Virus record (IMG/VR): IMGVR_UViG_3300048079_000024
Coordinates: 1-51,599 of that record
Reading direction: 5' to 3' (one strand)
Length of the DNA: 51,599 nt
DNA from: a virus
Taxonomy: Duplodnaviria > Caudoviricetes
The notes beneath the pieces were generated by a model. It was given only the letters and a program-made list of their open reading frames with translations, did not search any database and was not told the origin of the DNA. Both the position numbers and the translations under genes were made by a program. Shown one piece after another: positions 1-47,184 of the stretch (position 1 is its first letter; every line of letters begins with the position of its first letter).

Positions 1-203
1 GAGCGATGCACAGGTGTTGACCGTGATCGTGCTGCTGTACGTCGCGGTGTCAATGCTGGCAAATCTTCGGTAGCAGCAGCAGAGAAGATGCACAGGGGCA
101 GACCATCGCCCTTGTGCATTTTTTTTTATTTGCGTCCCTGTTACTGTGATCGTTGCCACGAGCGAGGGGGCAGGCCCCCCCAGGCGTGCGCGAGAACCGG
201 ACG
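1..203 (+). repeat. Terminal direct repeat, left copy
   Basis: Identical to 51396-51599 except T9 versus T10 in the terminator T-run. Confidence 0.97.
88..127 (+). terminator. Rho-independent terminator (within terminal repeat)
   Basis: ATGCACAGGGGC-8 nt loop-GCCCTTGTGCAT stem (one G:U pair), followed by a T-run. Confidence 0.9.
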
Positions 204-1544: not shown

Positions 1545-2720
1545 ATGAGCGTCCGTGAGTTCGTCGATGCGATTGCAAAGGGTGAGCTGGTCGAGGACGA
1601 GCTGCTCGTGGACCGCAAGACGGGTCTCGTCCGACAAGCGGGCACCGTCGATGGCGGGGATAGCAAGTTCATCCTGAAGTTCCGCGAGGCCGCTGAGCGA
1701 TCCCTGTACGTGTTTGCGAAGGCCGTGCTCGGGCTCGACCGGCTCACCCATCATTTACACTTGCCCGTCTGCCAACTGCTCACGCGCATCCCGCCCTATC
1801 GCAAGCTCGTGCTCCTGCCCCGCGATCACCTGAAGTCGAGCATCGTTGCGAAGGCTCTCCCCATCCACATCCTCATCCAGCCGAAGGAGAACAACATCTA
1901 CATCCCCAAGCTCGACGGGGCCTCGACGCGCATCCTGCTCTCGAATGAGACGGCCACGAACGCCGAGCACTTCCTGCGCTGGATTATGGCGAAGTTCGAG
2001 ACGAACAAGTTACTGCGGGCACTCTGGCCGCATCGGTGCTGGAACAACCCCCGCCGCGAATCGAAGAAGTGGCAGGAGAAGGAAATGATGATTCCGCGTG
2101 ATGAAGACTTCCCCGAAGCCAGCATCGAGACCATCGGCGTCGGGGGCGCGATCACCTCGCGGCATTACAATGTGCTCATCAAGGATGACTTGATCTCCAT
2201 TGAAGCCGCGAACTCCCCCGTTGTCATGCAGACCGCTGTGGAGTGGCACAAGGCATCGCGGGCGCTGATGGACGATCCTGATAAATCGCTGGAGTTCATC
2301 ATTGGCACACGCTGGGCGGTGTACGATCTGTACGAATACATCGAGCAGGAAGATCCCTCGGTGGAAGTCTACAAGCGAGCGGGTGTCGAGGATGGGGTCT
2401 CGATCTGGCCCGAGATGTTCTCCCTGGAGACCCACGCGCGCCTGCGAAAAGAGTTCGGGACGCTGTACCCGTTGTTGTATCTGAACAATGCCACAGACCC
2501 CGCGTTGACGGACTTCGACTTGGAGGAGATCCGCATCTTCAACGTCGAGGGAGACAAGATCACATTCGAGGAGACCGAGCAGGATTTGCTGCTGCACAAG
2601 GAACAGAACACGCCCGCGCAGTCCCCGGATCTCCCGCGCGGCACCGTGCTCACACGCGACACGTGGGGACAGATGATGGGACGAGGCAAGCAGGAATACT
2701 TGAGGCTCAAATATGGCTGA
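1545..2720 (+). CDS. Terminase large subunit, ATPase half
   Basis: Walker A-like LLPRDHLKSS, GVGGAITSRHYNVLIKDDLI (Walker B), coupling motif IIGTRW. Confidence 0.88.
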   Translation: MSVREFVDAIAKGELVEDELLVDRKTGLVRQAGTVDGGDSKFILKFREAAERSLYVFAKAVLGLDRLTHHLHLPVCQLLTRIPPYRKLVLLPRDHLKSSIVAKALPIHILIQPKENNIYIPKLDGASTRILLSNETATNAEHFLRWIMAKFETNKLLRALWPHRCWNNPRRESKKWQEKEMMIPRDEDFPEASIETIGVGGAITSRHYNVLIKDDLISIEAANSPVVMQTAVEWHKASRALMDDPDKSLEFIIGTRWAVYDLYEYIEQEDPSVEVYKRAGVEDGVSIWPEMFSLETHARLRKEFGTLYPLLYLNNATDPALTDFDLEEIRIFNVEGDKITFEETEQDLLLHKEQNTPAQSPDLPRGTVLTRDTWGQMMGRGKQEYLRLKYG

Positions 2721-3351
2721 GCTAGACCTGAGCCTCTTGAGCACGTGCTATGCCTTCTGTGACCCAGCGGGAAAGAGAAAGCCGGGCGAGACCCTCAAGC
2801 GGGTGCGGGCACGTTCCGCCATCATCGTCGTGGCCCCCGATCACCTGTCGCGCATTTTCGTGTTGTATGCTTGGGCCAAACGCTGCTCGACGGACGAGAT
2901 GATCGAGCAGATCTTCGAGACCCAGGAGCGATTTCGCCCCCGGATCTTCGGGGTCGAGGCGAACGCGATGCAGTCCTTGTTCGCCGATGCGATTCGCCGC
3001 GAGTCCCGGATGCTCCAGAAGCGCATTGCTCTGCTCCCCGTCACACAGCCCACCGGCATCGATAAAGACTTTCGCATTCGGGCCGCACTCCAGCCGGTCA
3101 TCGCCTGGGGGCGTCTCTTCATCCAGGAGCACCAGACGGATCTGCTGCATGAGCTGACCTCGTTCCCGATGTCTGCGACCAAGGATCTCGTGGATGCGTT
3201 GGCGAGTGCGATCGCTCTCGTGCCGCAGAAGCCCACGCGCCGCCAGCATGACGAGGAGATCCAGAAGCTCGCTGCGTACTTGCGGAACTCGGGTGCGCCT
3301 GCGGCGTACATCGAGCAGCGAATCTCCGAACTCGCACTGAGGAAGAACTGA
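2713..3351 (+). CDS. Terminase large subunit, RNase H-like nuclease half
   Basis: FCDPAG, GVEANAMQ, K..RI, ELTSFP..KDLVDALA motifs; own GAGG RBS. Confidence 0.88.
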   Translation: MAELDLSLLSTCYAFCDPAGKRKPGETLKRVRARSAIIVVAPDHLSRIFVLYAWAKRCSTDEMIEQIFETQERFRPRIFGVEANAMQSLFADAIRRESRMLQKRIALLPVTQPTGIDKDFRIRAALQPVIAWGRLFIQEHQTDLLHELTSFPMSATKDLVDALASAIALVPQKPTRRQHDEEIQKLAAYLRNSGAPAAYIEQRISELALRKN

Positions 3352-3621
3352 ATGATTGAGTGGTTCCAGCTTGCTGTTGCCATCTTGAGTTTGATTGCAA
3401 TGGCGGTCGTCCTCCCACTGTATAATTCGATGCGGCGGCTTCGGTCGAACGAGATCCACGCACTCCAGGGAGACATCGCAGCACTCAAGCAGGATCTCGT
3501 CCGTATCGAGGCAACCCTCCATGAGCGGGTGGACGGGATCGTTCACCGCCTCGATACACACATCCAGTGGCATCTCAATCAAGCGATGAAGGGCAATCCT
3601 TCCACGCAGGAAGGCCCTTGA
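3352..3621 (+). CDS. Membrane protein with N-terminal TM helix and coiled coil (holin/antiholin-like)
   Basis: Hydrophobic N-terminus followed by heptad-like region; abuts the TerL stop. Confidence 0.6.
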   Translation: MIEWFQLAVAILSLIAMAVVLPLYNSMRRLRSNEIHALQGDIAALKQDLVRIEATLHERVDGIVHRLDTHIQWHLNQAMKGNPSTQEGP

Positions 3622-18146: not shown

Positions 18147-19079
18147 GTGGCAACCATCCTTGAGATTGCGCGATCGTCCCTCGCGGCGGTCAACACCGAT
18201 GCGAACGTGCTACTCGCGGCGCGGTGGGTGAATGATCGCTTCAGACAACTTGCTTCACGCGCCCGCCTCCGTAGTCTCCGTCAAGTTGGCAGTTTGGTTC
18301 TTCCCGCCCCCGTGACCGCTGGTGTTGCTACGATTACTCGCGGCTCGAAGTTCGTCACGGGGGATGCGACCGCACAGGCGGCGTGGTCTACAGCACTCGA
18401 AGGCCAGCACTTCAAGGCGCGCGTAGTCTGGTATCAAATCACCAAGGTCCAAGGGAATCAGCTCGAACTCGAAAACCCGTTTGCCGAGGATGATGTGGCT
18501 GATGGTTCGTACCGAGTGGTGCAGCGATACACGCCGCTCGATGAGACCGCCCGCTGGTTGGGGGATTTCGTCCACATGCGCCGCCGCATGCCGATCGATC
18601 GTGTGTCGCTGCCCGAGTTGAACATCTACGCCCCTGAGCGGCAACACGTCGGCGTGGGACCGTATGTGTATGTTGAGACCACCAGTGCAGCCTCCGGCGC
18701 GAAGCGGGTCGAGCTGTATCCGTATCCCTCGTTGACTGAGTTCATCAGTTACGTTTTCTGGTCTGTGCCTGCGAACATGGGGCCGCACGATCACGTGCCC
18801 GTCACGATCGACCCGTACATGCTGAAAGAGGGCACGCTGATCGACATCATGCGCTACGAGATGGCGAAGGCAGCGAATGCAGGCCGGGAGAACATGGCCG
18901 CATTCTGGCGTAATGAGTACCGGGCGCAGTCTACCACCTGGGAGAAGACGATGCTCGAAGCAATCCGCGCCGATCGGGGCAGTGATGACATGACTTTCAT
19001 CCTGGAGCGCCACGGGTTGCGCCCCGCTGGCGACATTCGTACTGCTCGGGACTATGTGCTGGCAAACTGGCCGAGGTGA
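18147..19079 (+). CDS. Putative head-tail adaptor protein
   Basis: T.LEIA N-terminus, WVND, ELYPYP, helical C-terminus. Confidence 0.6.
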   Translation: MATILEIARSSLAAVNTDANVLLAARWVNDRFRQLASRARLRSLRQVGSLVLPAPVTAGVATITRGSKFVTGDATAQAAWSTALEGQHFKARVVWYQITKVQGNQLELENPFAEDDVADGSYRVVQRYTPLDETARWLGDFVHMRRRMPIDRVSLPELNIYAPERQHVGVGPYVYVETTSAASGAKRVELYPYPSLTEFISYVFWSVPANMGPHDHVPVTIDPYMLKEGTLIDIMRYEMAKAANAGRENMAAFWRNEYRAQSTTWEKTMLEAIRADRGSDDMTFILERHGLRPAGDIRTARDYVLANWPR

Positions 19080-19082
19080 GAC

Positions 19083-19412
19083 GTGTGGGTTATCGCTGCT
19101 CTGATGCTTCTGCTCGCGGGGTGCGGCCCGCGCGAAGTGAAGGTCATCCGCACCTACGAGTTCAGTCCGGGCGTGAACATGACGATGCCGAAGGGTCAGA
19201 TCATCCAGATCCGCGTGATGTATGTCCCCCGAGAGCAGATTCACGAGATTGCCCGCAATACCTTCGAGCGGGATGGACTGCCGTTCAACCCGGCGTATCG
19301 TTACGAGGGATTCTTCGACTACCGCACGCGCACGCTCTACTGCGAGAAGTGGGACGCGGTAATCTGTGGGCACGAGTTATTCCACGCGACTGATGGAGAT
19401 TGGCATAAATAA
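19083..19412 (+). CDS. Lipoprotein with HExxH motif
   Basis: LLLAGC lipobox; GHELFH near the C-terminus. Confidence 0.7.
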   Translation: MWVIAALMLLLAGCGPREVKVIRTYEFSPGVNMTMPKGQIIQIRVMYVPREQIHEIARNTFERDGLPFNPAYRYEGFFDYRTRTLYCEKWDAVICGHELFHATDGDWHK

Positions 19413-31977: not shown

Positions 31978-32140
31978 CGGGTCGCTTCGTCTTGAAGGGG
32001 ACACCGAGGGCGACCATCAATTTACACCTGTGGTGGAGAATGCTCCTTACGTCTTGGTGGCAGTATGAGCAGTGATGTAGTCTGTCCTCACAATACTGCC
32101 TATGATTCTTTTTGAAGGTCCAGCAGGGAGAACGCGGCAT
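31961..32140 (-). CDS. 59-aa Cys/His-rich protein
   Basis: AAGGAG RBS; MPRSPCWTFKKNHRQYCEDRLHHCSYCHQD...; fills the gap. Confidence 0.5.
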   Translation of the reverse strand: MPRSPCWTFKKNHRQYCEDRLHHCSYCHQDVRSILHHRCKLMVALGVPFKTKRPDEKCA

Positions 32141-34592
32141 CCGTGAACTCCTTTCTGTTGGGCAACCGCTTGTATTCCAGCTCAGCCTTCCACATGGAGC
32201 CCAGCGAGAACTCAGTCCAGATCGTCACTGGCTCACCGTAGTAATAGATTGGCTGCTCCAAGCTGGACTGCAAGAACACGGCGATGTCCCAGGCATGCTC
32301 GGGTGGCGTGGAGATCCAGAGCCCGTCCTGCATGTGCAGGTTGATCGCAGGCTTGATCCCCGCGTGCGAGTGTGCGTGGCAGCAAGGTTTCAGTAGATAC
32401 TCGTCGGCGGGAATGAACCCCCACAGGTTCATCAGGATGGCAATGTCCGACTGCGGCCTCCAGGCATACGCGCGCCGGTACAGGTCATCGTCCAGCCGCT
32501 CGTACTCGAAATCGATGATCGCGCCCCAAATGTTCGAGAGGCATCGATTCCGCATCACCTCCGATCGGGTCTCCTTGTGGTAGACCTCCTTGATCTCCGG
32601 GGAATCTGCGTGCAGCTTGTCAATGATCCGTTGTGCCTCCTCGGAGGGGATGACGTAGCCTTCCTTCAACAGTTCATCGGAGAGCCGCCGCCCGTGCATG
32701 TCATAGTTCGTGGCATGCTTCGCTCGTTTGCCCAGGTATCGCTGATCGTAGTCCACCTCATCGATCGGTGTCCCGAACGCCACGTGCGCCGAGTGCTTGT
32801 GCGCGTCCCACTCATCCGGGTGCAGTCGCGCGAGATTGATGAGCCGCTTTGACCGTGTGAGCATCTTCACCACGCGATCTTCTGCCTGGCTCAGATCCAC
32901 ACCCAGGAAGACGCACCCCGGATCTGGCTTCACGATGTCTCGGAGTTCGCGGTCGAAGTTGTGGGGGCTAGCTCCTCGCTTGGCGGGGTTCTTCGAGGCC
33001 CGCATACGACACGTCTCAGCATACGGCCCCATTGTGAAACGCCAGCGGCCATCCGGGTCCAGACGCTCTTCCTTGAGGAAGCGGGCCACGGTGGCTGTTC
33101 GCCTATGGTCCAGGATAAGTGCTCCAGCCTCCGCAAGTTGGGGCTTGTTTGGATAGCGAAGTAGCAATCGTCGGACAGCAACCTCGTTGGTAGTGGCTCG
33201 TCCCGTCTTTCGATTGAGTATAGGGGGAAGCCGAAGCGTAGTGTAGAGGAAATGCTTGAGCTTTTTCGTGGAGAGATCCGTCTTCCCGTAGAGCGGTTCG
33301 CCTGCGATTTCCGTGAGCCGATCTTGCGCGTTGATGACCCGCGCCTGGAGCGCCGCGAGCTTGTGCCGTCTCTGATGGTCATCGAGACCCACGCCATGCA
33401 GCATGATTCGCAGAATTGGAGCGAACAGTTGTCGATAATATCGGTTGTAAAACTCCATCCGTCCGGCAGCAGCGAGCCGCACGTGCAGCGTGTCGCTAAG
33501 TTCTCGCTCGACGGCGGCATCAATACCACAGTAGGTCCAAAGGGCTTCCTCGTCTGAGGCATACTTCATCACCTCCTCGGGATCTTTCGTCTCATCCTTC
33601 CAGTATGGTTGCCGCGTGAAGATGCTCGCCATGTACGCCAGATCGTGATTATCCACGGGATCGAGGCAGTGATGTTGTGCGAGGCAATCCCACACGAAGT
33701 TGGTGATCTCACACCCGTTACGCGAGAGGTGCCAGGCGTCATAGAGCCAGTTCTGTCCGATCTTCTCCAGGCCACTCGCCATCAGTGTGCGGATCGCATC
33801 CCACACGTGGCGCAGTACGTAATCATCTTTCCAGTATGAAGGCGTCGTCGGGACGGTCATGCTGAACGCGGGGTCGTTAGAGAAGCCAACGCAGAGGATG
33901 AAGTCAGGGAGGTTCTCGATGTCTACAGCGATGGGTTCGCCGAGCTTGATCGCGCCATGCACGTAATCGTACACATCATCGAGTGTGGGCCGGATGAAGT
34001 GCTCACGCTGGGGCAGGCGTAGCTCCCGAAACGTGGCGTCGTCTGCAATCCGTGTCCAGTCGAGGATGCACGCCCGCTCCCAATTCCGCTGCTCGACCAC
34101 GCCCTCGTCGCGTTTGCGAGACGCGCGCCACAATGTGTGCGCCGGATGGATGGTGGGGATGACCTTGATCTCGCGTCCACGTCTGTCTGTGTAACTGTAG
34201 ATCGAGCCCCGATGCGAGGTGATCCCAGGCTTCTTTTCGCCCTGCCGAAACTTCCCTTGACCCGTGAGTGCGTATAGCGCCTTGTTGCCAGTCGGAACGA
34301 TGAGCCACGGATCTGTCAAGGCAGCCAGGCGATCGTGCAGCTCGTTGATCCAGTGCTCGATCTCATCCTTCGGGACAGCATCGATCCCTTGACGCGGCCA
34401 GTATGGATAGACATTCGTGATGTAGAAGTTGCTGCGAAGGAGCCCGACACGCGGCCACCAATTCTGTTCGAGTTTCTGGCCGCTCGGGCCGACGAATGGG
34501 CGCAGGAGTTGATTCTCCCAGCGACCGGGGGCTTCCCCGACGAGGACGATCCGGGCGTTCGGGCTGCCCTCATCAGGGACGAAGTTTGTCAT
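32100..34592 (-). CDS. Uracil-DNA glycosylase (family 4-like) / 3'-5' exonuclease / family A DNA polymerase fusion
   Basis: LVGEAPG, PFVGPSG, YITNV, TIHPA (UDG); VDIE, QNWLYD, YCGID (Exo I-III); DLSQAEDR (motif A), R..GK...HATNY (motif B), MQDG (motif C). Confidence 0.92.
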   Translation of the reverse strand: MTNFVPDEGSPNARIVLVGEAPGRWENQLLRPFVGPSGQKLEQNWWPRVGLLRSNFYITNVYPYWPRQGIDAVPKDEIEHWINELHDRLAALTDPWLIVPTGNKALYALTGQGKFRQGEKKPGITSHRGSIYSYTDRRGREIKVIPTIHPAHTLWRASRKRDEGVVEQRNWERACILDWTRIADDATFRELRLPQREHFIRPTLDDVYDYVHGAIKLGEPIAVDIENLPDFILCVGFSNDPAFSMTVPTTPSYWKDDYVLRHVWDAIRTLMASGLEKIGQNWLYDAWHLSRNGCEITNFVWDCLAQHHCLDPVDNHDLAYMASIFTRQPYWKDETKDPEEVMKYASDEEALWTYCGIDAAVERELSDTLHVRLAAAGRMEFYNRYYRQLFAPILRIMLHGVGLDDHQRRHKLAALQARVINAQDRLTEIAGEPLYGKTDLSTKKLKHFLYTTLRLPPILNRKTGRATTNEVAVRRLLLRYPNKPQLAEAGALILDHRRTATVARFLKEERLDPDGRWRFTMGPYAETCRMRASKNPAKRGASPHNFDRELRDIVKPDPGCVFLGVDLSQAEDRVVKMLTRSKRLINLARLHPDEWDAHKHSAHVAFGTPIDEVDYDQRYLGKRAKHATNYDMHGRRLSDELLKEGYVIPSEEAQRIIDKLHADSPEIKEVYHKETRSEVMRNRCLSNIWGAIIDFEYERLDDDLYRRAYAWRPQSDIAILMNLWGFIPADEYLLKPCCHAHSHAGIKPAINLHMQDGLWISTPPEHAWDIAVFLQSSLEQPIYYYGEPVTIWTEFSLGSMWKAELEYKRLPNRKEFTDAAFSLLDLQKES

Positions 34593-45481: not shown

Positions 45482-46210
45482 CTAGCTGCTGAAGAACCGC
45501 CCGAGCCGCTGCAAGTGGGCCATCGCGGCTTGTGGCGGGGCACCCTTCAGTGCTCGCGTGCAGGCGTTATGCGCACCCCACTGTGAACGGGGTATACAGT
45601 CTTCATACCCCAACTCCTGCGCCTTGAAGAAGTTACTCGCCACCTCGTTGAACAGCGTGTGCGACAGGATGCCCTGCTGGAAGATGTCGAAGATCAGGGC
45701 CTTCGCTGCCTCGCCGTCCACGCGCGCTGACTTCATCGCCCCCACGGAGTGATCGAACACCCGGCACGCCTGAAAGTACCGATCCAGGCCACTGTCGATC
45801 TCATAATTCAGTGACAGTCGCCGGTAGTGGGCCGCGCGCACGATTTGGCTCTCCCCGCTGAGGGCCAGGTTGTCACAGATGAAGATCCGCGCGCCGACCA
45901 CGAGATGAATTGCCAGGCTCCGATCATGCGACGTGCGGAATCCGAGGGACCGTCCGTATTCTTTCTGACCGTTCGCACCCGTCAAATCGAACAGCCCGAA
46001 CAGCTTGTTATTCGACGGATTCAGGGCCAACTGTTCCCGCTCGATGGTGATGCCCTTTGCCGCGAGCCGGTCAGAGATGACCTCGACTAGCTCGGGAAAC
46101 GCCACGGCACGATAGGTGCGCGTGGTCACAGGCGTCTCCACCTGGGCCAGTTCCGCCCGTGTCACCAGACGTGAGCCACGATGCAGGACGATGTTTGACT
46201 TCGCTTCCAT
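45482..46210 (-). CDS. DUF932-like protein
   Basis: LGFRTSHDRSLA...GARIFICDNLALSG...H; W.AHNA.T.ALK. Confidence 0.75.
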   Translation of the reverse strand: MEAKSNIVLHRGSRLVTRAELAQVETPVTTRTYRAVAFPELVEVISDRLAAKGITIEREQLALNPSNNKLFGLFDLTGANGQKEYGRSLGFRTSHDRSLAIHLVVGARIFICDNLALSGESQIVRAAHYRRLSLNYEIDSGLDRYFQACRVFDHSVGAMKSARVDGEAAKALIFDIFQQGILSHTLFNEVASNFFKAQELGYEDCIPRSQWGAHNACTRALKGAPPQAAMAHLQRLGRFFSS

Positions 46211-46223
46211 TGTGGGCCTCCTC

Positions 46224-46298
46224 TCACCCTCGTATGAGGGCGATCACGATTGCCGTTGCTAGGATTGCTAGCCACGCCAGTATGTACCTCCATACCAA
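46224..46298 (-). CDS. 24-aa single-TM peptide
   Basis: GGAGGTGAT RBS, TTG start; MVWRYILAWLAILATAIVIALIRG. Confidence 0.55.
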   Translation of the reverse strand: MVWRYILAWLAILATAIVIALIRG

Positions 46299-46302
46299 GG
46301 CA

Positions 46303-46617
46303 TCACCTCCCCTTCGCGCGCTTCCAGATGTTGTGCTTCTCTGTTGCAAGAGCCTTAGCGTATTCCTCGAAGCCATTGGTGGCATCACCCACGGTGAAGC
46401 CAAGGTGCCCCTGCACATCGTCCAAAGCCTCCCGCGCGATTTGGGGGTAGCTGTGGTGATCGACTGGCTTGTATTCACCATCCTCTGTGCGGAACGGGCA
46501 CCCGCGCGACCGCGCGACCTTCGCCGCCGGTCACAGGCCCACGCCCACTTTGCCCCACAGGCGACCGAAATACCGTGCTGTCTTGGCAAGAGCGATCTCT
46601 TTCTCAGTCAGCGGCAT
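46303..46617 (-). CDS. Candidate selenoprotein (104 aa, in-frame UGA at codon 29); alternatively a nonsense pseudogene
   Basis: MPLTEKEIALAKTARYFGRLWGKVGVGL-UGA-PAAKVARSRGCPFRTEDGEYK...KRAKGR; read-through tiles the gap exactly; SECIS-like hairpin downstream. Confidence 0.6.
46497..46533 (-). promoter_or_regulatory. Putative bacterial SECIS element
   Basis: UGA CCGGCGGCGAAGG UCGCGC GGUC GCGCGG GUGCC; apical loop GGUC at +20..+23. Confidence 0.55.
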
Positions 46618-46618
46618 G

Positions 46619-46975
46619 TCAGTCCCTCACCCTGCGCTCCACGTCCCGCGCGTAGTCGAACTCTCGTGCTTGCAGAATCTCCCACAGACCAGGATTCAGC
46701 ACGACGGGCTTGTGCTCCTCGTGCGTGATTGTCGTCGGCGTCTGCACGTCCAAGAATCGCGCCGTCAGCACGGGCACCCGACCGCGCGCTTCCCTGGTCC
46801 ACTGTTCCTCGTACCGCTCCAGGATCGCCGCTTCGCCCTCCGTGATGCGGTGCGCGTGGCCTGTGGCTTCCCCACGCTGAATGATGCGGGACTCGTTCTG
46901 CTTCAGGTTGTTCAAATACTCGCCGCGCTCCGAACGCCGAAACAGCATGTCTCCGTGCCTCACGAGATCCTTCAT
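46619..46975 (-). CDS. His-rich conserved hypothetical protein (R[QH]GD / GE.TGH.H / HEEH family)
   Basis: RHGDM, GEATGHAH, THEEH, L.PG.W...QAREFD...V.D. Confidence 0.75.
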   Translation of the reverse strand: MKDLVRHGDMLFRRSERGEYLNNLKQNESRIIQRGEATGHAHRITEGEAAILERYEEQWTREARGRVPVLTARFLDVQTPTTITHEEHKPVVLNPGLWEILQAREFDYARDVERRVRD

Positions 46976-47184
46976 GGTGTCCCCCTTTTCAGTATACGTG
47001 CGAGTTTCTCGTTCCATGCTCTCTCCCGAATGATCCGGCTTGCCTCGTCTCGGTACTTATACAACGCTTGGTACAGTGCCTCGGCCTCCTTTCTCTTGGC
47101 TTCGAGCGCGTCGATGCGCGCGGCCAAGTCTTTGAGAAACGGTGTCGGGCATTTCTGCAAATCTGCGAGACTCTGAATGCTCAT
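46972..47184 (-). CDS. Coiled-coil hypothetical protein
   Basis: GGAGG RBS; ATGA overlap. Confidence 0.65.
   Translation of the reverse strand: MSIQSLADLQKCPTPFLKDLAARIDALEAKRKEAEALYQALYKYRDEASRIIRERAWNEKLARILKRGTP

What the first reader, a model, noticed from the sequence alone, without database searches (positions are those of the whole stretch)
46303..46617. Candidate phage-encoded selenoprotein: in-frame UGA followed by an fdhF-like SECIS hairpin
Seen: an ATG at 46617 (-), right after the upstream stop at 46619, opens 28 codons, hits TGA (46533-46531) and continues 75 more sense codons to a TGA at 46303. That stop overlaps the perfect RBS (GGAGGTGAT) of the next gene. After the UGA there is no in-frame ATG, and no GTG/TTG until codon 65, so read-through tiles an otherwise unexplained ~230-nt hole in a densely packed operon. 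The context is GL-U-P-x9-C-PF. The RNA after UGA is CCGGCGGCGAAGGUCGCGC-GGUC-GCGCGGGUGCC: a 6-bp upper stem with loop GGUC at +20..+23 and a weaker lower stem GGCG/UGCC. Established: the E. coli fdhF SECIS has GGU at +12..14 and GGUC at +19..22, and bacterial SECIS models place a G-starting apical loop roughly 16-37 nt after the UGA. Inference: the phage uses host SelA/SelB/tRNA-Sec (none recognised here) to make a novel redox or metal-binding early protein, or uses Sec availability as an expression switch. The viral selenoproteins I know are poxviral GPx. A competing hairpin (GACCG-GCGGC-GAAG-GUCGC-G-CGGUC) that includes the UGA could also modulate read-through.
Basis: partly seen in the sequence, partly recalled or inferred. 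Interest (0 to 1): 0.92.

Follow-up and report, generated by a model that had tools for sequence, protein, structure and literature searches.

The report
Phage gene with conserved selenocysteine codon
A small phage gene is interrupted by a UGA stop codon that distant relatives keep at the same position and that is followed by the kind of RNA hairpin bacteria use to insert selenocysteine, so it is most likely a selenoprotein gene carried by a bacteriophage.

Summary
On the minus strand, ATG 46617 opens 28 codons, then TGA 46533-46531, then 75 codons to TGA 46305-46303. The same frame scores as coding on both sides of the TGA.

The window alone shows little: the hairpin is no more stable than shuffles, and 4.4% of the window's TGA triplets pass the published bacterial SECIS rules.

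Comparison decides it. A full HMMER search found small proteins that align across codon 29, with Cys or Ser there. A DNA pattern that left codon 29 free retrieved 36 family loci. Of 32 unique sequences including the window, 19 carry TGA at that column, at a median pairwise identity of 36%. Ten of 17 complete TGA-type genes also end at TGA, and TGA is the window's commonest stop, so the genetic code is not reassigned.

A hairpin meeting the bSECIS rules follows 18 of 19 TGA members and 1 of 13 others. The read-through protein folds as one confident domain with no known fold.

Best reading: a new phage selenoprotein family that depends on the host's SelB. The host, actual selenium insertion and the protein's function remain untested.

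The parts
46306..46617 (-). Coding sequence of the 104-residue read-through protein (U at codon 29); member of a previously unnamed small-protein family
   Evidence: same frame coding on both sides; family profile matches 46306-46617(-) at E 1.4e-28 with 1 TGA inside. AlphaFold2 pLDDT 91.9, pTM 0.84 as one domain.
46531..46533 (-). In-frame UGA, proposed selenocysteine codon 29; N-cap of the predicted helix 30-37
   Evidence: The same column is TGA in 19 of 32 unique family sequences. Helix limits.
46502..46517 (-). Proposed bacterial-type SECIS hairpin: 6-bp stem UCGCGC/GCGCGG, loop GGUC (46511-46508), 19 nt between the UGA and the loop
   Evidence: -8.5 kcal/mol, passes the published constraints. 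The same position and loop type recur in 13 of 19 TGA members. It is not part of the window's minimum-free-energy fold.
46506..46534 (-). Competing hairpin that sequesters the UGA (loop GAAG)
   Evidence: minimum-free-energy and centroid structure of 46470-46545(-). I did not check whether relatives conserve it.
46303..46305 (-). Terminal TGA stop of the gene, inside GGAGGTGAT (46310-46302)
   Evidence: Homologues end at the same place (...RAK/RAKGR), so this TGA is a true stop.
46624..46628 (-). GAGGG ribosome-binding-like motif 6 nt upstream of ATG 46617; it lies at the end of the upstream gene
   Evidence: Read from the sequence.
46619..47017 (-). Upstream gene, 132 aa, phrog_27831 (unknown function); its TGA stop lies 1 nt before the ATG
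   Evidence: relatives in 58 viral contigs.
46224..46298 (-). Probable next gene: 24-codon hydrophobic ORF from TTG 46298, 7 nt after GGAGG
   Evidence: Read. Its frame is the best-scoring frame at 46287-46257. No homology test was run.
45482..46210 (-). Downstream gene, 242 aa, DUF932
   Evidence: PF06067, E 2.1e-6.

Best explanation
Codon 29 (UGA, 46533-46531, minus strand) of a 104-codon early-region gene of a complete tailed-phage genome is a selenocysteine codon.

Proposed mechanism. During infection of a Sec-decoding bacterium, the host's SelB carrying Sec-tRNA(Sec) binds the hairpin that starts 13 nt after the UGA (loop GGUC, 19 nt after the UGA). It then delivers selenocysteine, so the ribosome makes one 104-residue protein instead of a 28-residue peptide. 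The phage encodes none of the machinery itself.

The selenol sits at the N-cap of helix 30-37, in the motif G-L-U-P-A. In this position the helix dipole, together with a neutral residue at position 31, would favour a reactive selenolate.

Shown here:
- the conserved UGA;
- Cys-containing homologues;
- a hairpin specific to the TGA members;
- a single-domain fold that spans the UGA;
- standard use of TGA as a stop elsewhere.

Inferred only: SelB dependence, actual Sec insertion, a redox or nucleophilic role, and the host.
For: 1. Family. phmmer against 1.84 billion proteins gave 15 hits. Eleven are 48-150-aa proteins aligning across codon 29, with E7, W21, G22, P30, A35, R38, G39 and F42 invariant.

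2. Conserved UGA.
- A degenerate DNA pattern with codon 29 left free hit 3 viral, 64 metagenome and 22 genome loci.
- A family HMM split them cleanly: members score at least 29 bits, the rest under 20. Members are 3 of 3 viral loci, 33 of 64 metagenome loci and 1 of 22 genome loci.
- 21 of the 33 metagenome family loci have TGA at the column.
- Of 32 unique sequences, 19 have TGA (window included), 2 Cys, 6 Ser, 2 Thr, 2 Ala (one gene counted twice) and 1 Gly.
- The 17 complete Sec-type proteins share 26-96% identity, median 36%; only 3 of 136 pairs exceed 80%.
- On the maximum-likelihood tree, Sec versus non-Sec needs 10 changes (8-12 in bootstraps, at least 3 forced by well-supported branches).

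3. Not another genetic code.
- 10 of 17 complete TGA-type genes end at TGA, 5 at TAA and 2 at TAG. L102 (TGA stop) and L072 (TAG stop) both end ...RLREAV.
- In the window, 28 of 54 coding-like ORFs end at TGA, and the frame after a TGA stop mostly scores as non-coding.

4. Hairpin.
- I implemented the bSECIS rules quoted in PMC13188914 (passages): loop 3-9 nt, stem 4-16 bp, G in the first two loop positions, 16-37 nt from the UGA, and at most -7.5 kcal/mol.
- 18 of 19 TGA members pass, against 1 of 13 non-TGA members; uncorrected Fisher p = 7e-7.
- 13 of 19 have a 6-8-bp stem ending at +22 with a 4-nt loop (GGUC, AGGU, AGAU or GGUU).
- Synonymous sites co-vary: Ala GCG goes with Arg CGC/CGU (12 of 12), and Ala GCC with Arg CGG/AGG (5 of 7), p = 0.0018.
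- Minimum free energy of +10..+51 averages -14.4 against -10.0 kcal/mol, p = 5e-4.

5. Sec and Cys forms share U/C-P-A. None of 17 Sec forms has an acidic residue at position 31. Eleven of 15 Ser/Thr/Ala/Gly/Asp forms have E or D there.

6. One domain. pLDDT 91.9, pTM 0.84.
Against: - The host is unknown. The nearest cultured phages share only about 25% identity in PolA, so the presence of selABCD could not be checked.
- The phage has no selA, selB, selD or tRNA-Sec.
- There are no expression or selenium data.
- In the window the proposed hairpin is the weakest of its class (-8.5 kcal/mol, 6 bp) and is absent from the minimum-free-energy fold, which pairs the UGA instead.
- Much of the pairing follows from conserved amino acids: non-TGA members still pair in 69% of cells, against 82.7% in TGA members.
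- The phylogenetically independent test is underpowered: 3 pairs on supported branches, p = 0.25.
- Ser, Thr, Gly, Ala and Asp at the Sec column are unusual for a catalytic Sec.
- The sample is conditioned on a pattern that fixes A35, R38 and G39.
- L079 (Ser) keeps a perfect hairpin, and L102 (TGA) fails the strict rule.
Confidence: 0.78

Rival explanations
1. The conserved UGA is a programmed leaky stop. Read-through would be by a standard near-cognate tRNA, perhaps helped by the downstream hairpin, and would set the ratio of a 28-residue peptide to the full protein without any selenium.
For: A conserved UGA with a downstream structure fits read-through signals as well. The next base is always C, because Pro30 is nearly invariant. 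From memory, UGA-C is a weak terminator in E. coli; I did not test this. No Sec machinery could be tied to any member.
Against: The closest non-TGA forms have Cys with the same U/C-P-A context, which is the usual Sec signature. The hairpin meets each bSECIS constraint, including a fixed 19-nt spacing in 15 of the 18 that pass, and a G in the first two loop positions. The first 28 residues are part of one folded domain, so a free peptide product has no evident role.
Confidence: 0.13
2. The gene is dead or mis-assembled: a recent nonsense mutation or a sequencing error turned a Cys or Ser codon into TGA.
For: TGA is one base from TGC, TGT and TCA, all of which occur in relatives. The public protein collection holds only a 40-residue C-terminal fragment of this gene (P0003).
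Against: TGA stands at the same column in 18 other unique sequences at a median identity of 36%, with both halves conserved. An independent contig at depth 22 shows no variant. The coding signal continues after the TGA.
Confidence: 0.01
3. The phage or its host reads every TGA as an amino acid (a table 4 or 25 style code, or genome-wide stop-codon recoding as in some phages).
For: Small residues (Gly, Ser, Ala) occur at the column in some relatives.
Against: TGA ends 28 of 54 coding-like ORFs in the window, and the frame after those stops mostly scores as non-coding. Ten of 17 TGA-type family genes end at TGA where homologues end at TAA or TAG. The upstream gene's TGA lies 1 nt before this gene's ATG.
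Confidence: 0.01
4. There are two separate products: a 28-residue peptide and a C-terminal protein started at an internal codon after the UGA, which assemble without being joined.
For: An in-frame TTG at codon 65 gives the 40-residue ORF that gene callers report.
Against: TGA-type relatives conserve no in-frame start after the UGA. Residues 30-64, including the invariant A35, R38, G39 and F42, would go untranslated. The model is one domain with strands and helices from both sides.
Confidence: 0.03

Closest known systems
Bacterial selenoprotein genes with an in-ORF SECIS (bSECIS consensus; E. coli formate dehydrogenase genes as the type case)
   Same: An in-frame UGA aligned with Cys in homologues. 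A stem-loop inside the ORF, 19 nt after the UGA, with a 4-nt loop that has G in its first two positions. It meets the consensus quoted in PMC13188914 (passages read; tested).
   Different: The gene is carried by a phage that has no sel genes. The protein family has no Pfam, PHROG or PDB relative. The stem is contiguous, without the bulged U that I recall for fdhF; that feature is recalled and comes from no call. Non-Cys replacements occur at the Sec column.
Poxvirus glutathione peroxidases (molluscum contagiosum, fowlpox)
   Same: A virus-borne gene with a Sec-UGA that relies wholly on the host's insertion machinery. In fowlpox the SECIS also lies in the coding region (PMC8310308, passages read).
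   Different: Those are captured cellular GPx genes of eukaryotic viruses with eukaryotic SECIS elements. This one has a bacterial-type hairpin, a phage background and a protein with no recognisable cellular homologue.
Redox proteins with a Cys or Sec at the N-terminus of a helix (thioredoxin-fold CxxC/UxxC proteins)
   Same: The model puts residue 29 at the N-cap of helix 30-37. The Sec and Cys forms lack a neighbouring acidic residue. That this geometry lowers the pKa is general knowledge, not a result here.
   Different: There is no thioredoxin fold and no fold match at all (best Foldseek E 0.77 in PDB, VIA Z 3.7). No conserved second Cys: C40 of the window is not conserved.
Programmed UGA read-through in phage Qbeta (coat protein extended to A1; recalled, from no call)
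   Same: A phage gene whose full product needs a UGA to be decoded.
   Different: There the identity of the inserted residue is immaterial and the extension is a separate domain. Here the UGA lies inside one compact domain, at a column that is Cys in relatives.
Pfam DUF6197
   Same: Two of 39 family members give a weak match, best E 2.4e-4.
   Different: The window's protein gives no match, either directly or in a six-frame search at E up to 1. None of the 20 members rescanned singly matched. I did not take this further.

Membership tests
Bacterial-type selenoprotein gene (Sec-UGA plus bSECIS) | In-frame UGA with coding signal and homology on both sides | tested here: met
Bacterial-type selenoprotein gene (Sec-UGA plus bSECIS) | UGA conserved in orthologues and aligned with Cys in other homologues | tested here: met
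   19 of 32 unique sequences have TGA. Cys in L061, L069 and, in P0005, P0008, P0009, P0010, P0018. Ser, Thr, Gly, Ala and Asp also occur.
Bacterial-type selenoprotein gene (Sec-UGA plus bSECIS) | Downstream stem-loop meeting the consensus: loop 3-9 nt, stem 4-16 bp, G in the first two loop positions, 16-37 nt from the UGA, at most -7.5 kcal/mol (PMC13188914) | tested here: met
   Window: 6 bp, loop GGUC, spacing 19, -8.5 kcal/mol. 18 of 19 TGA members pass, against 1 of 13 non-TGA members and 4.4% of the window's TGA triplets.
Bacterial-type selenoprotein gene (Sec-UGA plus bSECIS) | selA, selB, selC (tRNA-Sec) and selD available in the translating cell | not testable with these tools
   Host unknown. 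None of the four is found in the phage genome, and no tRNA-Sec in 35 family loci.
Bacterial-type selenoprotein gene (Sec-UGA plus bSECIS) | Selenium shown in the protein (75Se labelling or mass spectrometry) | not testable with these tools
   Needs an experiment.
E. coli fdhF-type SECIS (features recalled from memory, not from a call) | GGUC-type apical loop about 20 nt after the UGA | tested here: met
   Loop GGUC at 46511-46508, which is +20..+23 counted after the UGA.
E. coli fdhF-type SECIS (features recalled from memory, not from a call) | Unpaired (bulged) U in the upper stem | tested here: not met
   The window's stem is 6 contiguous pairs with no bulge.
Genome-wide stop-codon reassignment (TGA read as a residue everywhere) | TGA not used as a stop, and in-frame TGAs in many genes | tested here: not met
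   28 of 54 coding-like ORFs end at TGA. 10 of 17 family genes end at TGA.
Poxvirus-type viral selenoprotein (glutathione peroxidase) | Homology to GPx | tested here: not met
   No Pfam family at E up to 1. No family shared by more than 2 of 39 members.
Pfam DUF6197 | Match to the family model over its cut-off | tested here: not met
   No match for the window's protein. 2 of 39 members match at E 2.4e-4 or weaker.

The most novel reading that the evidence does not exclude
This is a widespread family of bacteriophage selenoproteins with a new fold. Its production is gated by the host's selenocysteine machinery and selenium supply. The UGA-SECIS would then act both as a catalytic upgrade (a selenolate at a helix N-cap) and as a host- or selenium-sensing switch for an early gene. 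The gene would also mark its phages as infecting Sec-decoding bacteria. The Ser/Thr/Gly-Pro-Glu relatives would be non-reactive forms, in which the same position is only a helix cap.
Probability: 0.3. Interest if true: 0.92.

Novelty: new variant of a known kind. Interest (0 to 1): 0.86.

Why it matters
- The viral selenoproteins named in the review I read are poxvirus glutathione peroxidases (PMC8310308, passages).
- A 2026 review of the prokaryotic selenoproteome, the BSepDB paper and the deep-Sep paper contain no occurrence of 'phage' or 'viral' (term counts).
- Four full-text searches found no paper on a phage selenoprotein. Subscription journals and supplementary files were not searchable.
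- If confirmed, this extends UGA-to-Sec recoding to bacteriophages and adds a selenoprotein family with no recognisable fold.
- It would also give a sequence marker that restricts the possible hosts of such phages to Sec-decoding bacteria.
- Standard gene calling hides the family: the public protein collection holds only a 40-residue fragment of this gene, and only the non-TGA relatives appear there as full-length proteins.

Tried and rejected
**Searches with the window's own sequence that found nothing**
- blastn (distant mode) and tblastn against 50,697 phage records: no match.
- Pfam and PHROGs on the read-through protein: none.
- Word-indexed protein search: 2 candidates, none scored.
- Single-sequence scan of viral contigs: 38 stretches, none related.
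- tblastn of the protein against 58 loci that hold relatives of the upstream gene: best E 0.56.
- Rfam at E up to 10 over 45900-47100: one chance lncRNA row.

**Other scans**
- The downstream DUF932 gene gave no viral-contig relatives.
I used a degenerate DNA pattern instead.
- A TGA-specific relaxed pattern in viral contigs: 0 of 11 hits are family members.
- Profile search of the word-indexed collection: 5 proteins, 1 of them new.

**Fold and family searches**
- Foldseek against PDB, best E 0.77. BFVD, best E 0.32. VIA-align against 48,161 chains, best Z 3.7. None is meaningful.
- Profile against PDB sequences: best E 0.74.
- ESM Atlas with the natural Cys homologue P0008: best score 0.87, only unnamed viral clusters, so a lead at most.

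**Host**
- Portal relatives at 48-50% identity are fragments (9-64% complete) with no family gene. The same search does find the window's gene.
- 401 genomes of the phylum of the one MAG that holds a member: only that MAG matches.
- No synteny between the window and the other family loci.

**Folding and consensus structure**
- RNAalifold on the 19 TGA sequences gives only a weak 5-pair consensus (-3.0 kcal/mol), because two pairing registers coexist.

**Rows left out**
- P0004, P0013 and P0014 (long tandem-repeat proteins hit in several short stretches) were left out of all alignments.
- A4 also omits P0003 (the window's own fragment), P0007 (same protein as L061), P0012 (a 48-aa fragment), L093, L101 and L111 (cut by contig ends), and the duplicates L060, L078, L080, L084 and L121.
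- A3 omits L093 (same gene as L098).

Full report
**What the window is.** The window is a whole IMG/VR virus record of 51,599 bases, rated 100% complete by CheckV. It encodes an SU10-type portal, a capsid protein, a UDG-PolA fusion, a DUF3987 protein, a PD-(D/E)XK nuclease and an AAA_24 ATPase, so it is a tailed phage. The finding lies in the minus-strand block of small genes next to the replication and recombination genes.

**The observation.**
ATG 46617 follows the upstream TGA (46621-46619) by one base. Then come 28 codons, TGA 46533-46531, and 75 more codons to TGA 46305-46303, which lies inside GGAGGTGAT.
- The first in-frame alternative start after the UGA is TTG at codon 65.
- A codon-usage log-odds scan, trained on 13 long ORFs of the window, makes this frame the best frame both before the UGA (46617-46587) and after it (46527-46362). 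Scores are weak in all frames for about 30 nt around the UGA.
- The hairpin is as described: UCGCGC, GGUC, GCGCGG at 46517-46502.
- The competing hairpin that contains the UGA is the minimum-free-energy and centroid structure. The 76-nt segment is no more stable than its shuffles (z = -0.32).
- A separately assembled contig of the probable source run carries the same sequence at depth 22 without variants. It may rest on the same reads.

**Why the window alone cannot decide.** With a strict implementation of the published bacterial SECIS constraints, 78 of the 1782 TGA triplets of the window (4.4%) have a qualifying hairpin. For 2.6% it is at least as stable as this one. The case therefore rests on comparison.

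**Relatives.**
- The phage database, Pfam, PHROGs, the word-indexed protein search and a single-sequence scan of viral contigs all found nothing.
- An exhaustive phmmer search of 1.84 billion cluster representatives found 15 proteins at E up to 0.001. One is the window's own 40-residue C-terminal ORF, which is all the public collection holds of this gene. Three are long tandem-repeat proteins that I set aside after reading them. Eleven are proteins of 48-150 residues that align across codon 29.
- In their alignment E7, W21, G22, P30, A35, R38, G39 and F42 are invariant. Column 29 is Cys in 5, Ser in 4, Gly in 1 and Asp in 1.

**The conserved UGA.**
- Predicted-protein databases cannot hold full-length TGA forms. 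I therefore back-translated W-G-x4-G-x-x-P-x3-(xTx)-A-x2-R-G-x2-F into a DNA pattern with codon 29 left free, and scanned the collections. This gave 3 loci in viral contigs, 64 in metagenome contigs and 22 in genome contigs.
- A family HMM separates them cleanly: members score at least 29 bits and the rest under 20. Members are 3 of 3, 33 of 64 and 1 of 22.
- Of the 33 metagenome members, 21 have TGA exactly at column 29, with conserved sequence on both sides.
- After collapsing identical 105-nt segments, 32 sequences remain including the window: 19 TGA, 2 Cys (TGT, TGC), 6 Ser, 2 Thr, 2 Ala (one gene counted twice) and 1 Gly.
- The 17 complete TGA-type proteins share 26-96% identity, median 36%, and only 3 of 136 pairs exceed 80%.
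- On a maximum-likelihood tree of 39 members the TGA state is scattered. It needs 10 changes (8-12 over bootstraps), and the well-supported branches alone force at least 3.
- A nonsense mutation or an assembly error cannot explain this.

**Not another genetic code.**
- In the window, 28 of 54 coding-like ORFs end at TGA, 16 at TAG and 10 at TAA. The frame after TGA stops mostly scores as non-coding.
- Ten of the 17 complete TGA-type family genes themselves end at TGA, at the point where relatives end at TAA or TAG.

**The hairpin.**
- The consensus quoted in a 2026 review (PMC13188914, passages and the Fig. 2 legend) asks for a 3-9-nt apical loop, a 4-16-bp stem, a G in the first two loop positions, 16-37 nt between the UGA and the loop, and at most -7.5 kcal/mol.
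- Allowing only contiguous stems, 18 of 19 TGA members pass (L102 fails). Fifteen of the 18 have a spacing of exactly 19 nt. Only 1 of 13 non-TGA members passes (L079, a Ser form). The uncorrected Fisher test gives p = 7e-7.
- Thirteen of the 19 have a 6-8-bp stem ending at +22 and a 4-nt loop (GGUC, AGGU, AGAU or GGUU). Four use a shifted register with a 7-9-nt loop. L073 and L103 have other hairpins.
- The two registers correspond to coordinated synonymous choices. Ala35 GCG goes with Arg38 CGC/CGU in 12 of 12, and Ala35 GCC with CGG/AGG in 5 of 7 (p = 0.0018). No non-TGA member has a G at the third position of Arg38.
- Caveats. The conserved residues V-A...R-G by themselves give 69% paired cells in non-TGA members, against 82.7% in TGA members. 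RNAalifold finds only a weak consensus. The phylogenetically independent test has only 3 usable pairs on supported branches: the hairpin goes with TGA in 2.8 of them on average, p = 0.25. The pattern used for retrieval fixes A35, R38 and G39. In the window itself the hairpin is the weakest of its class.

**The protein.**
- With the 39-sequence alignment, AlphaFold2 gives one compact domain (pLDDT 91.9, pTM 0.84). It has helices 5-11, 30-37, 57-71 and 81-102 and strands 42-45 and 48-51. Residue 29 is thus the N-cap of helix 30-37, and the first 28 residues belong to the same domain.
- No fold or family match is meaningful. Two of 39 members touch DUF6197 weakly, and the window does not.
- Sec and Cys forms share U/C-P-A. 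None of 17 Sec forms has an acidic residue at position 31, whereas 11 of 15 Ser/Thr/Ala/Gly/Asp forms have Glu or Asp there.
- My inference, from general knowledge of helix capping: Ser, Thr, Gly or Asp followed by Pro-Glu is an ordinary N-cap motif. Those relatives may therefore use the position structurally, while the Sec and Cys forms place a reactive selenolate or thiolate at the helix end.
- No second Cys is conserved. The function is unknown. My working guess is a single-selenol redox or nucleophilic protein of the early or recombination module.

**Context elsewhere.** L125 has an SbcC-like ATPase and an HNH/NUMOD4 endonuclease near the gene. L084 has a PD-(D/E)XK nuclease and an AAA_24 ATPase, as the window does. 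The loci share almost no other proteins with the window.

**Machinery and host.** No selA, selB, selD or tRNA-Sec is in the phage. No tRNA-Sec is in the 35 family loci scanned. The host could not be determined. This is the main gap.

**Literature.** Full-text searches for phage or viral selenoproteins returned only papers on eukaryotic viruses. A review of viral recoding names only the two poxvirus GPx genes (passages). Three recent papers on bacterial selenoproteomes do not contain the words 'phage' or 'viral' (term counts). Subscription journals and supplementary files were not searchable.

**Verdict.** I put Sec recoding by the host's SelB at about 0.78, non-Sec programmed read-through at about 0.13, and the remaining readings at 0.05 together.

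Noticed in passing
window 46224-46298 (-): A 24-codon, strongly hydrophobic ORF (TTG start 7 nt after GGAGG) lies between the selenoprotein candidate and the DUF932 gene. Its frame is the best-scoring one there. The ATG that overlaps the stop (TGATG) opens only 11 codons.
   Followed up: partly
window 2713-3621 (+) and 18147-19412 (+): Two gene pairs are separated only by a TGA, with the next coding-like ORF in the same frame (89 and 110 codons). They are probably adjacent genes with their own starts. I did not check them for read-through.
   Followed up: no
L079:449-496 (+): A Ser (TCC) member keeps a perfect 7-bp hairpin with loop AGUC at the SECIS position, the only non-TGA member to do so. 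It may be a recent Sec-to-Ser replacement.
   Followed up: no
L101 and L066: Two close relatives with nearly identical N-termini differ at the column. L101 has TGA-CCC-GCA (U-P-A) with a hairpin. L066 has GGG-CCT-GAA (G-P-E) without one that passes. L101 also has a tRNA-Leu(TAA) gene just upstream.
   Followed up: partly
L074:3663-4205 (-) (same gene in L080, L084): This TGA-type member carries a C-terminal extension of about 75 residues with a Cys/His-rich stretch, 181 aa in all.
   Followed up: no
window 46303-46425 (-): The public protein collection holds only this 40-residue TTG-started fragment of the gene (P0003). Standard gene calling truncates the family's TGA members.
   Followed up: yes
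window 32100-34592 (-): An 830-residue fusion of a uracil-DNA glycosylase domain with a family-A DNA polymerase. The nearest cultured relatives are at about 25% identity and include Desulfofustis and Microcystis phages.
   Followed up: partly
window 46619-47017 (-): The upstream 132-residue gene (phrog_27831) has relatives at 25-36% identity in 58 viral contigs. None of those loci holds the selenoprotein family.
   Followed up: yes
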